Made by a program: the position numbers. A DNA stretch of 64,000 nucleotides, from the NCBI GenBank assembly GCA_000002435.2, contig CM018789.1, one strand, 5' to 3'. The DNA is from Giardia intestinalis (taxonomy: Eukaryota). How positions within the stretch are numbered: the stretch's first letter is position 1; each line of letters begins with the position of its first letter. Positions 45,001 through 54,000 of this stretch are shown piece after piece.

Positions 45001-48000
45001 GCTTGTAAGGTGCTAGTCATGACGTCATACGCAACCCGAAGAAATCCCAGTTCGAGCAGTGCATTACAAAGGCCAGACGCTGAGCCCTTGTTGAACAGCA
45101 GCGAGTGATCGAATGCCGGCAAACTGGAGGCACCGCTTGTGTCCCTGAACCGCCGCCGGATGGACACCCGTTGCTGCCTCGTCGACTCTTCACCGGTATA
45201 AGGGAGAATGGCTGACCGAGCGATCCACAAGAGCAGCCAGGTCGCAAAGGCAAAGTGTCCACCGGGCCCCTCTGTCAGGCGATCGAGGTAGGCAGGCTTG
45301 TCCTCTGTCTCCTGTGGGGGCCTGAGAGTTGCATGCTCCGAGGACAAGTGTAATACTGCATAGAGGAAGTCGGTGAACTCGGAAGTATTGGGCTCTTCGT
45401 CAATATACGCCTCCCGCACGTAGACAAGGTGCTTGTGAAGAGCTGCATGGCCGGTCAGGAGGTGGGATACTTGCGTGTCTGTAGAGGCTACTGGCCTGGA
45501 TTGCTTATTATTGCGTCTCCGTTGGCCTTCAGATGTGTTTGGAGTCTCGTGCAGGGACTGATTCTGTTGACGGGCCCCAAAGTTCAGATCCCGCACGATG
45601 ATCATGCTCTTGTAAGCCATACGAAGGCCGGTGTAGGGGTCCTTTGGGTCTATGAACGGTATGCCATAAGACTCCGCCAGTCCAATCTCCTTCTTCGACG
45701 GATGAAAGTCTTTGAGAGGTTTGATTCTGCGGAGCAAGGGCAAGAGCTCCGTGTCCTGGAGATCGTGGCCTGCGTATATTCTGGCAAAACACTTGAGTAA
45801 GCCAACACGGCACCGAGTGGCGTCGAGAATAGACTCGGCATGGGACTGCTGCTCTCCTAGAGCCTCTACAAGCGTGCACTTTACACGAGCCACGTGCCGC
45901 TCCAGTGAATCCGCCGCTTTGTTTGCTGCAGCCAAGGCCTCCTCAAAGGAAAGTCTGGAGAGATGGTAGAGTGCACGGTTGTAGTTAAACTGATAAAGGC
46001 GTTTGTAGTCACTGTTAGACTCCAATGCGGCACAAGTGGTTCGCTCGGCTTCCTGAAGGCTCGAGGGGTCTAGAGCCACTGTGCACTGAGAAGCCGCAGC
46101 ATAGAGGTCAAGTGGGCTGCCCAAGGCGTGAGATAGATCCTCGGATCCGCGCCTGAAGAGCTTCATATTCAAGCAAATCTGACCCTTAAGAGCGCTGTAG
46201 GCCGGAAGCTGACCTGGGTGTTCAAGAAACCACGAAGCGTCTCTTCCTTCCACAAAGTCAAGATAGGCTCTTTCGAAGGGTAACGCGCGTGCTATGTTCG
46301 GTTGCAATTTCACAAATGCTGCGAGCTGCTGAATGTCTCTATCCTTGATTGCACAGTAGCAGACGGCCCGTCCGGCGCGATACTTCAGTTCCCCACCAAC
46401 AAGGTCCCAGGCTATCGCGCGAGCACGTGAAGTGTCGCTTGCCTCGAGCGCTGCGATAACATCTTGCATACTATTTTTTATCGCCATCCGTGTATTGTTG
46501 GGCCCCTGTCTACCAGGACGGCAGACCAAGTAGAGGAGCACTACTCCTAGACTGCAAGGACCTGCGAGAAGGTCTGAGCCTTGAAGCGGCCGACATGCAC
46601 ACCCGGACGGAGCAGACACCGCAAGGAACGGCCGAGGAATGTACCAGACTGTGGATGCACCAATAGAGAGGAGCCCCTAGTATGTAACCTACAACCAATC
46701 CTCGTCTCTGCACTGGCCAGGAACTGGTCGAGGCTTACTTGTGGGATTTCCAAGCGCATCTACAGGCAGGGCCCCAGCACAGTATAATATGCTTTATACA
46801 GTGACGCGTTTACTATCTAAGTACACAGCTAAGTCTACGCCTTTCCTCTACAGAGGAACCACCAGCAGAGGAAGCCCACAAGACCCCCGACTACAACGAT
46901 GACTGCGACGGAGATACCAGCTATGGCCCCTGTGCTGAGGCCGCTCTTGTTCGTGCTTCCACCAGTGCCTACTTCTGATTCTAAGCATATGACTGAACTA
47001 CCAGATGATGACACACATTGCTTGCATCCAGAGATCTTCTCTGAGCACTTCATGCACGGGCCATCAGTGGTATCGTCACCGTTTTCCTTGTAATACCCAG
47101 TGGCACAGGTCTTACACGAGCTTGCAGTACTGGGAGCACTGCACGTAGCACAAGTAGGATGACATTCTGCACAGTTGCCATCAGTTGCTGCTAAGCCATT
47201 GGCACATGTCTGACACTTACCATTGCCTCCCTGTGCATTACTACACACCTGCTTACCAGGCTGTCTATCTGTCTGATAGCAACCGCCGTCCTTGAGGAAG
47301 TAGTTATCTTCACATTGAGTGCACACCCCATTACCCATTTTAGTACAGAAAGTTGCTCGTGAACTGGCCGCACAGTCGCCGTTCAAGGGGGCCTGAGTGG
47401 AGGTCTTGCACTTTGAGCAGTATGCAGTTCCTCCTATCTGAGCCCCGCATGTCTCACAGCCAGTGCCATCTGCAGACACCTTGCACGCATCCCCGCAGGT
47501 GCCTCCGTTATTAGGATTGCTGTCATCTGTATATGTCAGTTTCTTGCCAGCAGGACAGGAACTACACTGATTGTTGGCCGGCCCAACGCACTCAGCGCAC
47601 TCAGGGCTGCATGCCTTACACTTCTTGTCATTATCTCCGTAGTATCCGCTGATGGTCGTGCAGTCAGGTACGCATTGGTTTGTAGGGGTGAGGTAGTCGC
47701 CGTCATTACATTCAGTGCAGACCTCGTTGTCTGTTTTGGGGTTATCACAGATCTTACAGTTGGGAGTATTACACTGTGTGTTAGAGGCCTTCTCGCAGCC
47801 GTCCTTCCCGCTGTTCAGGTTGAATCCCTCGTTGCACTCGCAGATGTCCGGGTTGGCCGCAGAGTTCGACGGGCAGCTGTCTCCGCAGCTTATTCCATTG
47901 AGTTGCACCTTCTGGCCGCCGTTACAGGTGAGGCACGTCTGGCCGTTGGGGCCCACAGCAGTGCAGGTCGCACAGCCGGCGCGCTTCAGCTCTTCTCCGC

Positions 48001-51000: not shown

Positions 51001-54000
51001 CGCTGTTCAGGTTGAATCCCTCGTTGCACTCGCAGATGTCCGGGTTGGCCGCAGAGTTCGACGGGCAGCTGTCTCCGCAGCTTATTCCATTGAGTTGCAC
51101 CTTCTGGCCGCCGTTACAGGTGAGGCACGTCTGGCCGTTGGGGCCCACAGCAGTGCAGGTCGCACAGCCGGCGCGCTTCAGCTCTTCTCCGCAGTCTGTG
51201 TTAGAGGCCTTCTCGCAGCCGTCCTTCCCGCTGTTCAGGTTGAATCCCTCGTTGCACTCGCAGATGTCCGGGTTGGCCGCAGAGTTCGACGGGCAGCTGT
51301 CTCCGCAGCTTATTCCATTGAGTTGCACCTTCTGGCCGCCGTTACAGGTGAGGCACGTCTGGCCGTTGGGGCCCACAGCAGTGCAGGTCGCACAGCCGGC
51401 GCGCTTCAGCTCTTCTCCGCAGTCTGTGTTAGAGGCCTTCTCGCAGCCGTCCTTCCCGCTGTTCAGGTTGAATCCCTCGTTGCACTCGCAGATGTCCGGG
51501 TTGGCCGCAGAGTTCGACGGGCAGCTGTCTCCGCAGCTTATTCCATTGAGTTGCACCTTCTGGCCGCCGTTACAGGTGAGGCACGTCTGGCCGTTGGGGC
51601 CCACAGCAGTGCAGGTCGCACAGCCGGCGCGCTTCAGCTCTTCTCCGCAGTCTGTGTTAGAGGCCTTCTCGCAGCCGTCCTTCCCGCTGTTCAGGTTGAA
51701 TCCCTCGTTGCACTCGCAGATGTCCGGGTTGGCCGCAGAGTTCGACGGGCAGCTGTCTCCGCAGCTTATTCCATTGAGTTGCACCTTCTGGCCGCCGTTA
51801 CAGGTGAGGCACGTCTGGCCGTTGGGGCCCACAGCAGTGCAGGTCGCACAGCCGGCGCGCTTCAGCTCTTCTCCGCAGTCTGTGTTAGAGGCCTTCTCGC
51901 AGCCGTCCTTCCCGCTGTTCAGGTTGAATCCCTCGTTGCACTCGCAGATGTCCGGGTTGGCCGCAGAGTTCGACGGGCAGCTGTCTCCGCAGCTTATTCC
52001 ATTGAGTTGCACCTTCTGGCCGCCGTTACAGGTGAGGCACGTCTGGCCGTTGGGGCCCACAGCAGTGCAGGTCGCACAGCCGGCGCGCTTCAGCTCTTCT
52101 CCGCAGTCTGTGTTAGAGGCCTTCTCGCAGCCGTCCTTCCCGCTGTTCAGGTTGAATCCCTCGTTGCACTCGCAGATGTCCGGGTTGGCCGCAGAGTTCG
52201 ACGGGCAGCTGTCTCCGCAGCTTATTCCATTGAGTTGCACCTTCTGGCCGCCGTTACAGGTGAGGCACGTCTGGCCGTTGGGGCCCACAGCAGTGCAGGT
52301 CGCACAGCCGGCGCGCTTCAGCTCTTCTCCGCAGTCTGTGTTAGAGGCCTTCTCGCAGCCGTCCTTCCCGCTGTTCAGGTTGAATCCCTCGTTGCACTCG
52401 CAGATGTCCGGGTTGGCCGCAGAGTTCGACGGGCAGCTGTCTCCGCAGCTTATTCCATTGAGTTGCACCTTCTGGCCGCCGTTACAGGTGAGGCACGTCT
52501 GGCCGTTGGGGCCCACAGCAGTGCAGGTCGCACAGCCGGCGCGCTTCAGCTCTTCTCCGCAGTCTGTGTTAGAGGCCTTCTCGCAGCCGTCCTTCCCGCT
52601 GTCCTTTGCAAGCACTGTTGCACAAACTAGGAGAAATCCTACCAACATTAGCGAGAGTACACGTGCCACTGCTCTTCTGTCAGACTGGTGTGTTGCCGCG
52701 AGCAGTGAGAGACAGCCGCTCTTACTCCCTTAACCAGTTGGACTGGAGAAGGACGAGATAGGAGTACGCCCACCGGAGGCCAGCTGATAGTGTAGTTTTC
52801 CCTGACTTCAGTAGGAACAGGACCGGTGAGGGCCAGACTCAGATCGCACCTCTCTTGTGGAGTGATTGTTCGGGGTGCACTCCTGTACATTGCTGTGGGG
52901 TATTTGTTGGCTTCCTCTGCGGGGGCTGGTGTCTCGGTAGTAAACGCACCGAAGAGTCCTGCTCGTGACTTTCTGGGCACCGATTGCGAGGGAGCCCCTG
53001 GTGCGTGATGGGTTCTAGGAATATGGTGAGCACGGGTGATCCTGTAGGGCATGCAGCCTCAGAAGAGAGCACCGACAGGCCAGCGCTGGAGGGGCACTAG
53101 ACCCTGCATGGCCCGCGTGGATGAGTGGCGGAGGAGGGCAGAGGACGCGGGCGAGTGCTGCTAGATGGCCGTGCACACGTGGAATGGCCATGACTGCACA
53201 GTTGGGGGAGCTGGTGCAGAGTACTAGTAATGCGTGATAGTCGCGAACGGGCCAGGACAGACAGGGACGCCATGCCAGCGCATGCAAGGGCGCTCCACAG
53301 TGTACGGGACGACGTGTCTGCTGTCATGGACACAGGCTCGGGAAGTGAGGCTGGCAGAGACCTGCGCTTTCTTGTAGCCTCTGAGGGTGCGGCCCAATCA
53401 CTCGTTCAATCCGATCGCTTGGTCTTATTTTTGGAAACAAACTTCATGGCCGGCGGCAGCAACCACGCAGCCAGCCCCCCAGCGGTGGCCCCCAGCGTCC
53501 CACACTTTGTCATTGAGGAGCTCCACGAGTTGCTGGATGGCGTGCTGGGCAGAGGAGTTACAGGTGTAGTCTACGCCCTCAGGGGCTATCCGAGTCTCGC
53601 TGTGCAGGAGATCCTCCTCGACGGCCTGGGCAAGAGCAACGTGGACGCCATCAGACTCGAGTTGGCCACCCTCCCCGACCTCTCCCACCCGGGGATCCTC
53701 AAGTATCATCAAGTAGTCGAGGATGAGGGCCTCATCTACGTCGTCACGGACCGCCACGACAAGACACTCGAGCAAGTGTTTATCGACTGCAAGCGGAGGA
53801 AGACCCCCGTCTCTCCCGAGCTGGTCCTCTCCGTCCTGAGGCAGCTCGCCGCCGCCCTCGCCTATCTTCATGGTCTCAGCGGGGTAGGTGCTAATGGGCT
53901 TGTCCACCGCAACCTCAGGCCTGCCAGCATCCTCGTCAGCGCAGATGGTGAACACTTCGTCATTGCTGATTTCGGCCTCTGCAGGGACGCCCTGTGGAGT

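What the first reader, a model, noticed from the sequence alone, without database searches (positions are those of the whole stretch)
46835..52669. VSP gene built from about 21 perfectly identical 228-bp (76-aa) Cys-rich tandem repeats
The minus-strand ORF ends in the invariant Giardia VSP tail (hydrophobic TM helix plus CRGKA). It also has a GGCY motif and CXXC spacing throughout. Between the 14-22-aa signal peptide and a unique roughly 310-aa C-terminal region, the protein consists of a 76-aa unit repeated about 21.2 times with no nucleotide difference between copies that I can find. The 228-bp period is visible directly, for example at 47941, 48169 and 48397. Zero divergence over 4.8 kb implies very recent expansion, strong concerted evolution or gene conversion, or an assembler-generated copy number. 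Repeat-containing VSPs are described in Giardia (CRP136/CRP170-type, recalled from the literature). Copy number and unit sequence are the properties that vary between isolates and affect antigenicity. Because the unit lacks the codons whose complements are stops, all three antisense frames stay open for about 5 kb, which matters because antisense VSP RNA is implicated in VSP silencing.
Basis: partly seen in the sequence, partly recalled or inferred. Interest (0 to 1): 0.75.

Follow-up and report, generated by a model that had tools for sequence, protein, structure and literature searches.

The report
Known Giardia VSP gene CRP65, 21 repeats
This is an already catalogued Giardia surface-antigen gene (CRP65 / vsp27 / GL50803_38901) whose body is 21 letter-perfect copies of a 228-base cysteine-rich module; the gene, its repeat unit and its 1937-residue protein are all published, so the finding is correct but ordinary.

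Summary
The core observation holds. Window 47777..52602 is one tandem array of period 228 nt, 21.2 copies, with no mismatch or indel. It lies in a minus-strand CDS, 46835..52648 (1937 aa), that ends ...[12 protein letters not shown].

One side claim is wrong. Only two of the three antisense frames are stop-free. The third has 85 stops and cannot be open for this peptide.

The VSP interpretation is right, but the gene is already known. The protein is identical to XP_001708995.2 / KAE8301901.1, "VSP with INR", of Giardia intestinalis WB C6, chromosome 1. It is vsp27 = CRP65 = GL50803_38901 = GenBank L39804 in Adam et al. 2010. Its 228-nt unit and 1937-aa length appear in the supplements of a 2022 VSP survey.

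Removing exactly 17 units gives the 645-aa CRP65 protein AAB06228.1. Published copy numbers are therefore about 1.2, 4.2 and 21.2.

Perfect identity within an array is normal for this family: 20 of 21 related VSP arrays are 100% identical internally, while units from different genes share 35-66%. The best explanation is homogenisation or recent amplification by unequal exchange or slippage.

Interest is low. The true copy number, and whether it varies, remains open.

The parts
46835..52648 (-). Complete CDS of VSP CRP65 / vsp27 / GL50803_38901 (1937 aa plus stop; predicted 194.7 kDa)
   Evidence: Translation. Exact full-length match to XP_001708995.2 / KAE8301901.1. Pfam VSP PF03302 at E = 1.3e-73. 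Listed with 1937 aa and 252 Cys in the supplements of 10.1101/2022.03.07.483299.
52644..52650 (-). Candidate initiator element TAATGTT (PyAatgTT) containing the ATG at 52648..52646
   Evidence: Sequence read. Adam et al. 2010 define PyAatgTT as the candidate Inr and list TAATGTT for vsp27.
52607..52648 (-). Signal peptide MLVGFLLVCATVLA (14 aa)
   Evidence: Read from the translation. Identical to the leader of VSP136-3. The cleavage site was not computed.
47777..52602 (-). Tandem array of 21.2 copies of a 228-nt (76-aa) unit, 100% identical. Each unit has 10 Cys, two CXXC and one CXC (CECNEGF).
   Evidence: TRF. Unit-by-unit comparison. Unit composition. The unit is identical to the GL50803_38901 consensus in the 2022 survey.
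46952..47776 (-). Unique cysteine-rich ectodomain region, about 275 aa, containing GGCY at aa 1788
   Evidence: Translation. 95% identical to VSP136-3 over 312 aa when taken together with the tail.
46838..46951 (-). Conserved VSP C-terminal 38 aa: [33 protein letters not shown] (membrane anchor) plus the cytoplasmic CRGKA
   Evidence: Translation. These columns are nearly invariant in the 52-sequence alignment. Adam et al. 2010 describe this roughly 38-aa conserved region.
46808..46822 (-). VSP-type extended polyadenylation motif ACTTAGATAGTAAAC (contains AGTAAAC), 13 nt after the stop codon
   Evidence: Single match in the window, against 0.03 expected by chance. The same 20-mer, TACTTAGATAGTAAACGCGT, is listed for GL50803_0038901 in the 2022 survey supplement.
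47417..52730 (+). Two antisense stop-free stretches (47417..52627 and 47697..52730), by-products of the periodic sequence and not genes
   Evidence: Frame scan. Recoding test. The Pfam matches of their translations have no single stretch that passes on its own.
52649..53229 (.). 581-bp divergent intergenic region between the VSP and the NEK kinase gene (53230..56574, +)
   Evidence: ORF map. Kinase plus ankyrin domains and an exact match to 'Kinase, NEK'. The upstream sequence resembles that translated in a related VSP record, P0026.

Best explanation
The locus is the single-copy Giardia intestinalis WB gene for variant-specific surface protein CRP65 (vsp27, GL50803_38901) on chromosome 1.

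The protein is a type I membrane protein with four parts:
- a 14-aa signal peptide;
- an ectodomain stalk of 21 identical 76-aa disulfide-rich modules, of furin-like/EGF-like beta-hairpin type;
- a unique Cys-rich region of about 275 aa;
- the conserved VSP transmembrane helix and CRGKA cytoplasmic tail.

Like other VSPs it would coat the trophozoite when it is the one VSP expressed. The repeats would then present the same epitopes 21 times.

The perfect identity of the units reflects array-wide homogenisation or recent amplification, by unequal sister-chromatid exchange, replication slippage or gene conversion. The same process changes copy number.

Shown here: gene identity, architecture, perfect periodicity, the fold class of the module, and the family-wide pattern of units identical within arrays but diverged between them.

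Inferred: the recombination mechanism, the immunological role of the repeats, and that 21.2 is the true copy number in WB C6.
For: Identity:
- Exact full-length match to XP_001708995.2.
- Adam et al. 2010, Additional file 1: vsp27 = CRP65 = L39804 = GL50803_38901, TR228, chromosome 1, TAATGTT.
- The unit and the 1937-aa length are listed in the 2022 survey.

Family features: Pfam VSP; CRGKA, transmembrane helix, GGCY and CXXC; Inr; 3' motif.

Homogenisation:
- The array is 100% identical over 4826 nt.
- 20 of 21 related VSPs with arrays, from WB, P15, GS and other isolates, have units identical at the amino-acid level. A P15 relative's array is 99% identical at the DNA level.
- The same module is only 35-66% identical between genes, with all 10 Cys kept. 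The nearest other WB unit, in GL50803_50066, is 81.6% identical in nucleotides.

Copy-number lability:
- The protein minus exactly 17 units equals AAB06228.1.
- 1937 - 20x76 = 417, the length listed for the 2007 assembly.
- Adam et al. report allelic copy-number variation in vspA6 and vspC5, and warn that assembly can condense arrays.

Copy number credible: the assembly used PacBio at 200x with read N50 12.7 kb, so many reads should be long enough to span the 4.8-kb array.

Fold: the AlphaFold2 model of three units has pLDDT 89.8. Its best PDB matches are R-spondin furin-like repeats, then Pfs25 EGF arrays and ErbB/insulin-receptor Cys-rich domains.

Role of repeats: the vspA6 repeats are reported to be immunodominant.
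Against: - No reads were available, so I did not verify the figure of 21.2 copies or the absence of minority variants. Consensus polishing can hide rare differences between copies.
- WB has very low allelic heterozygosity (0.01-0.03%). Zero differences in 4.8 kb therefore needs only a recent origin, not continuing homogenisation, and the two cannot be separated here.
- The structural matches have low TM-scores (0.17 for the query), so only the class of module is supported, not a specific homologue.
- Expression of this VSP and its surface display were not tested.
Confidence: 0.93

Rival explanations
1. The copy number (21.2), and perhaps the perfect identity, are products of assembly and polishing. 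The true WB C6 locus has fewer or more copies, or copies that differ slightly.
For: Three published versions of the same gene differ only in copy number: about 1.2, 4.2 and 21.2. Adam et al. 2010 warn explicitly that repeat numbers may be condensed by assembly. Consensus calling on identical repeats can erase minority variants.
Against: Assembly errors in tandem arrays usually collapse them rather than expand them, and the longest version comes from the long-read data. The PacBio data were 200x with read N50 12.7 kb and 10% of reads over 20 kb, so the 4.8-kb array with flanks is well within single reads. The 1996 clone also has identical units at the protein level. Identical units are seen in 20 of 21 related genes from many independent assemblies.
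Confidence: 0.12
2. The different copy numbers are all real. The array expands and contracts quickly between WB sublines, or differs among the four chromosome copies of the tetraploid cell. The 4-copy CRP65 clone and the 21-copy reference would then be different alleles or lineages.
For: The 645-aa and 1937-aa proteins are otherwise identical. Allelic copy-number variation is reported for vspA6 and vspC5. Long-read work predicts structural variants within isolates, and these are enriched at VSPs.
Against: Tandem repeats are often deleted when cloned in E. coli, so the 4-copy clone may be an artefact (general knowledge, not tested). I did not find the subline of origin of L39804. WB C6 shows almost no allelic heterozygosity.
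Confidence: 0.3
3. The long antisense open frames are functional: either an antisense-encoded protein, or selection to keep antisense RNA translatable or stable for VSP silencing.
For: Two plus-strand frames are stop-free for 5.0-5.2 kb. That is somewhat less likely than expected from the peptide and codon usage (P = 0.03-0.09).
Against: Once a 228-nt unit lacks stops in a frame, repeating it 21 times makes that frame open for kilobases with no selection needed. One antisense frame is open in about half of random recodings. The antisense translations give no credible family match, since every Pfam hit has zero stretches that pass on their own. RNA-based silencing would not need an open reading frame.
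Confidence: 0.02

Closest known systems
CRP65 (GenBank L39804 / AAB06228.1; vsp27; GL50803_38901) of Giardia intestinalis WB
   Same: It is the same gene. The leader, 76-aa unit, C-terminal region and tail are identical. The window protein minus 17 units equals AAB06228.1 residue for residue. Chromosome 1, the TR228 annotation and the TAATGTT Inr also agree.
   Different: Copy number only: 21.2 here and in the 2020 reference, 4.2 in the 1996 clone, and about 1.2 implied by the 417-aa model of the 2007 assembly.
CRP136 (GL50803_103142) and VSP136-3 (AAG37860.1 / XP_001703984.1)
   Same: Same VSP subfamily. The first 20 residues, MLVGFLLVCATVLAKDSGKD, are identical to VSP136-3, and the C-terminal 312 residues are 95% identical to it. 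The architecture is the same: leader, tandem array, unique region, TM-CRGKA.
   Different: The repeat cassette differs. CRP136 has a 120-nt (40-aa) unit, about 22 copies in CRP136 itself. It aligns with the 228-nt unit over only 67 columns at 67% identity.
vspA6 / CRP170 (vsp67) and vspC5 (vsp90)
   Same: Classic repeat-bearing VSPs with more than 20 copies of a tandem unit after a short 5' segment. They show reported allelic copy-number variation and, for vspA6, immunodominant repeats.
   Different: The units are 195 nt and 105 nt, and these genes were not among the relatives examined here. In vspC5 the array runs up to the conserved 3' end, with no long unique region.
Other WB VSPs with units of about 222-228 nt of the same module class (GL50803_50066, 50165, 50169, 50289, 50290, 50181; P15 protein P0007)
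   Same: Same 10-cysteine module, C-x7-C-x8-C-x2-C-x9-C-x2-C-x12-C-x3-C-x10-C-x-C, ending in an EGF-like CxCxxG[FY].
   Different: 62-82% nucleotide identity and 35-66% amino-acid identity to this unit. The copy numbers seen in the proteins fetched here are lower, about 1.5-5.
Furin-like cysteine-rich repeats (R-spondin Fu1-Fu2, ErbB/insulin-receptor CR domains) and EGF-like arrays (Pfs25)
   Same: The predicted fold of the unit is a ladder of short disulfide-bonded beta-hairpins that forms an elongated rod.
   Different: The resemblance is structural and weak: Foldseek E = 2e-4 at best, TM 0.17 for the query and 0.4 for the target. No sequence-level family membership was shown.

Membership tests
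Giardia variant-specific surface protein (VSP) | C-terminal pentapeptide CRGKA (the defining criterion of Adam et al. 2010 and Xu et al. 2020) | tested here: met
   The translation ends ...[12 protein letters not shown]. The criterion is quoted.
Giardia variant-specific surface protein (VSP) | Hydrophobic membrane-spanning segment immediately before CRGKA, within a conserved C-terminal region of about 38 aa | tested here: met
   [33 protein letters not shown]. These columns are at least 90% conserved in the 52-sequence alignment. No transmembrane predictor was run.
Giardia variant-specific surface protein (VSP) | N-terminal signal peptide of 14-17 aa | tested here: inconclusive
   A hydrophobic leader, MLVGFLLVCATVLA, follows the ATG and is identical to the leader of the annotated VSP136-3. 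SignalP was not available. The gene is kept as a VSP in an annotation that required a SignalP-predicted leader.
Giardia variant-specific surface protein (VSP) | Cysteine-rich (about 11-13%) ectodomain with frequent CXXC motifs, and a GGCY motif | tested here: met
   252 Cys (13.0%), 56 CXXC, GGCY at aa 1788. One CXC per unit (CEC) is atypical for VSPs according to Adam et al., but it is shared by related VSP units.
Giardia variant-specific surface protein (VSP) | Match to the Pfam VSP model PF03302 above the gathering threshold | tested here: met
   E = 1.3e-73, 248.6 bits against a cut-off of 31.4.
Giardia variant-specific surface protein (VSP) | Candidate initiator PyAatgTT at the start codon (the 'VSP with INR' subclass) | tested here: met
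   cgcTAATGTTggt at 52650..52644. TAATGTT is listed for vsp27.
Giardia variant-specific surface protein (VSP) | Conserved extended polyadenylation motif just after the stop codon | tested here: met
   ACTTAGATAGTAAAC at 46808..46822 (-), the only match in 64 kb. The same motif is listed for this gene in the 2022 survey.
Giardia variant-specific surface protein (VSP) | Mutually exclusive surface expression and switching | not testable with these tools
   This needs clone-level antibody or RNA data.
CRP65 / vsp27 / GL50803_38901 (a specific gene) | Sequence identity to the deposited gene product and the same chromosomal neighbourhood | tested here: met
   Exact match to XP_001708995.2. The neighbouring NEK kinase matches XP_001708993.1 exactly, on the same 1,485,438-bp contig. 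The protein equals AAB06228.1 after removing 17 units.
   The unit here is 228 nt. Only 67 columns align to the CRP136 unit, at 67% identity. The flanking leader and C-terminal region do belong to the same subfamily.

The most novel reading that the evidence does not exclude
The 1.2, 4.2 and 21.2 copy versions are not all artefacts. Under this reading the CRP65 array expands and contracts on laboratory timescales or differs among the four genome copies of a WB cell, so repeat number is a second, genetic layer of antigenic variation on top of epigenetic VSP switching. This locus would be a convenient reporter for mitotic recombination in an organism with no observed meiosis.
Probability: 0.25. 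Interest if true: 0.4.

Novelty: already known. Interest (0 to 1): 0.12.

Why it matters
For Giardia biology this locus is a textbook case. Repeat-bearing VSPs, their variable copy number and their immunodominant repeats have been described since the late 1980s and 1990s. This particular gene, its repeat unit and its 21-copy form are in GenBank and in two published VSP catalogues.

The practical points are modest:
- Short-read or Sanger assemblies and old clones understate the array (about 1.2 and 4.2 copies against 21.2). The protein is therefore about 195 kDa, not 65 kDa, which matters for proteomics, antibody work and read mapping.
- The long antisense ORFs should not be annotated as genes.
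- Copy number at this locus would be an easy marker for mitotic recombination or subline divergence, if someone checked it with spanning reads.

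Tried and rejected
- The sigma-70 promoter and intrinsic terminator scan is irrelevant for a eukaryote and gave nothing usable.
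- Pfam scan of the antisense translations gave only summed weak hits with no single passing stretch. I rejected them as artefacts of repetition.
- I tried to fetch the DNA of the paralogue VSP136-3 for a nucleotide comparison of the flanks, but it is not on record. The comparison was done at the protein level instead.
- I looked for a positional orthologue in assemblage E isolate P15. The closest relative, P0007, is flanked by a cysteine protease and a helicase, not by the WB neighbours, and its contig ends 1.3 kb downstream. Orthology was not established.
- Literature searches for GL50803_38901/CRP65 outside the catalogues found only a list of predicted miR2-target VSPs.
- The 2001 review that might describe CRP65 is not held. 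The original 1996 CRP65 paper could not be read, so the source subline and any Southern data are unknown to me.
- The supplement held for the Be-2 (beaver, sub-assemblage AI) genome paper has no entry for this gene, so I found no independent long-read copy number.
- Fold search gave only class-level similarity. I do not claim homology to R-spondin or EGFR domains.

Full report
**Observation.** Tandem Repeats Finder reports one array in the region, at 47777..52602: period 228, 21.2 copies, 100% matches, no indels. Cutting the array into 228-nt units and comparing each with the first gives 21 full units and a 38-nt partial unit with zero mismatches. The periodicity does not extend a single base beyond either end. 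The window has no Ns.

Its translation ends ...[30 protein letters not shown]. Coordinate 52669 is a bacterial-code GTG. The eukaryotic start is the ATG at 52648, embedded in TAATGTT. The CDS is therefore 46835..52648, encoding 1937 aa.

The protein has 252 Cys (13%), 56 CXXC motifs, one GGCY (aa 1788) and a predicted mass of 194.7 kDa. The 76-aa unit has 10 Cys, two CXXC and one CXC. The array begins at the second base of codon 16 and is followed by 313 unique residues.

**One claim fails.** Only two of the three antisense frames are stop-free, over 47417..52627 and 47697..52730. The third carries 85 stops.

**Identity.** An exact-sequence look-up finds the 1937-aa protein as KAE8301901.1 / XP_001708995.2, "VSP with INR", of Giardia intestinalis ATCC 50803 / WB clone C6, on a 1,485,438-bp contig. 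The neighbouring plus-strand gene (53230..56574) is an exact match to "Kinase, NEK" on the same contig. Pfam gives PF03302 (VSP) at E = 1.3e-73.

Additional file 1 of Adam et al. 2010 (PMC2996952) lists the gene as follows: vsp27, clade II, name CRP65, GenBank L39804, gene GL50803_38901, feature TR228, chromosome 1, Inr TAATGTT.

The supplements of the 2022 survey of Giardia Cys-rich proteins (10.1101/2022.03.07.483299) list several matching items:
- GL50803_0038901 on NC_051856.1 with 1937 aa and 252 Cys;
- a 228-nt consensus unit identical to the one here;
- the 3' motif TACTTAGATAGTAAACGCGT.

I confirmed the core of that motif, ACTTAGATAGTAAAC, at 46808..46822 on the minus strand. It is the only match in the window, against 0.03 expected by chance. 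The finding is therefore a rediscovery of a catalogued gene.

**Copy number.** The same 90% cluster holds AAB06228.1, a 645-aa "cysteine-rich protein". Deleting exactly 17 units from the window protein reproduces it residue for residue.

Adam et al. list four repeats for this gene but a protein length of 417 aa. That length equals 1937 - 20x76. My inference is that the 2007 Sanger assembly held about 1.2 copies.

The same authors warn that repeat numbers may be condensed by assembly. They also note allelic copy-number variation in vspA6 and vspC5.

The current reference was built from PacBio RS II reads at 200x, with read N50 12.7 kb and 10% of reads over 20 kb. It was assembled with HGAP3 and polished with Illumina reads (PMC7000408). 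Many of those reads are long enough to cross a 4.8-kb array with its flanks, so 21.2 is the most credible figure. I could not inspect reads, so this remains an inference.

**Is zero divergence unusual?** It is not unusual for this family. A homology search returned 341 VSP relatives at E <= 1e-20. Among the 125 proteins held, 21 contain a tandem array. In 20 of these the units are 100% identical at the amino-acid level. They come from WB, P15 (assemblage E), GS (assemblage B) and other isolates. The DNA of the closest P15 relative shows 2.1 copies of 225 nt at 99% identity.

Between genes, the same module of about 75 aa is only 35-66% identical in protein, although all ten cysteines are kept. 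The nearest other WB unit, in GL50803_50066, is 81.6% identical in DNA.

Units identical within an array and diverged between arrays are the signature of array-wise homogenisation or recent amplification. WB is also nearly homozygous, with allelic heterozygosity of 0.01-0.03%. Zero differences over 4.8 kb therefore requires only a recent common origin of the copies.

**Architecture and likely function.** The first 20 residues are identical to VSP136-3, and the C-terminal 312 residues are 95% identical to it. VSP136-3 carries the CRP136-type 40-aa unit instead. This subfamily thus keeps a common leader and C-terminal body and differs in the repeat cassette inserted after codon 15-20.

An AlphaFold2 model of three units plus 62 residues, built with a 52-sequence alignment, is confident locally (mean pLDDT 89.8). 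Its pTM of 0.40 is low, as expected for an elongated chain of small modules. Each unit is a set of short beta-hairpins with one short helix.

Foldseek against the PDB gives, at best, R-spondin furin-like repeats (E = 2e-4), followed by Pfs25 EGF arrays and ErbB/insulin-receptor Cys-rich domains. All have low TM-scores. This supports the class of fold only, and agrees with published SMART hits to furin-like and EGF domains in VSPs.

Established VSP biology, as summarised by Adam et al., is as follows:
- The leader is cleaved and the ectodomain coats the trophozoite.
- The helix anchors the protein, and the CRGKA tail is palmitoylated on Cys and citrullinated on Arg.
- Only one VSP is expressed at a time, and the repeats of vspA6 are immunodominant.

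I infer that, when expressed, CRP65 displays a long rod of 21 identical epitope sets.

**Antisense frames.** I recoded the unit 40,000 times, with synonymous codons drawn either from other genes of the window or from the unique part of this VSP. One antisense frame was open in about 50% of recodings and two in 3-9%. The third frame was never open. Repeating a stop-free unit 21 times automatically yields multi-kilobase open frames.

Pfam hits to the antisense translations have no stretch that passes on its own, so they are artefacts of repetition. There is no evidence that these frames mean anything. RNA-based silencing would not require them.

**Context.** The window is ordinary gene-dense chromosome. 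It holds an SNF2/ISWI-type ATPase, an ABC transporter, three NEK kinases, a WD40 protein, a Not3 homologue and a ClpB-type ATPase. The VSP is solitary, not part of a linear VSP array. It is transcribed divergently from a NEK kinase across 581 bp.

**Verdict.** The gene is already known under three names, and the perfect repeats are the family norm. The residual open point is whether 21.2 is the only copy number in WB and how fast it changes. Interest is low.

Noticed in passing
window 52649..52760 (minus strand, upstream of the ATG): The roughly 100 nt upstream of the start codon translate to ...SKSGCLSLLAATHQSDRRAVARVLSLM. This closely resembles the spurious N-terminal extension of a related VSP record from another isolate (P0026: ...SKSNCLSLLAATHQPDGRAVARVLRLM). 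The 5' flank of this VSP subfamily therefore seems to be conserved across isolates, possibly as a shared promoter or regulatory region.
   Followed up: partly
window 44622..46619 (-), 57527..58789 (-), 59977..61695 (-), 19078..20412 (+), 23314..25053 (-), 28427..29923 (+), 30003..31238 (-): Seven sizeable ORFs have no Pfam match at the thresholds used. One of them is the 665-aa ORF immediately downstream of the VSP. They are presumably Giardia-specific hypothetical proteins.
   Followed up: no
window 8142..11768 (+), 43072..44601 (+), 53230..56574 (+): There are three kinase-plus-ankyrin (NEK-type) genes in one 64-kb window, one of them divergently paired with the VSP. Xu et al. 2020 note that VSPs, NEKs and ankyrin proteins cluster at synteny breaks.
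   Followed up: no
unit residues CECNEGF (once per 228-nt unit, 47777..52602): Each unit carries a CXC motif. Adam et al. 2010 describe CXC as uncommon in VSPs and typical of HCMPs. Here it is part of an EGF-like CxCxxG[FY] signature that related VSP units in WB, P15 and GS also carry.
   Followed up: partly
Adam et al. 2010, Additional file 1, row vsp27 (literature, not the window): The published table is internally inconsistent. It lists 4 repeats of 228 nt but a protein of 417 aa, which can hold only about 1.2 units given the 313-aa unique region. The '4' probably comes from GenBank L39804 and the length from the 2007 assembly.
   Followed up: partly
3' end of the CDS / 3' UTR, about 46800..46950 (-): A 2016 paper (PMC5192507) lists VSP-27 (GL50803_38901) among the VSP genes in its alignment figure of miR2 binding sites. 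I did not locate or score the site in the window.
   Followed up: no
L001 8001..9476 (Giardia P15, ACVC01000277.1): The closest P15 relative has the same leader, module and body architecture, with 2.1 units, but is annotated 'High cysteine protein' rather than VSP, although it ends in CRGKA. It also sits in a different gene neighbourhood. Its short-read assembly may have collapsed its array.
   Followed up: partly
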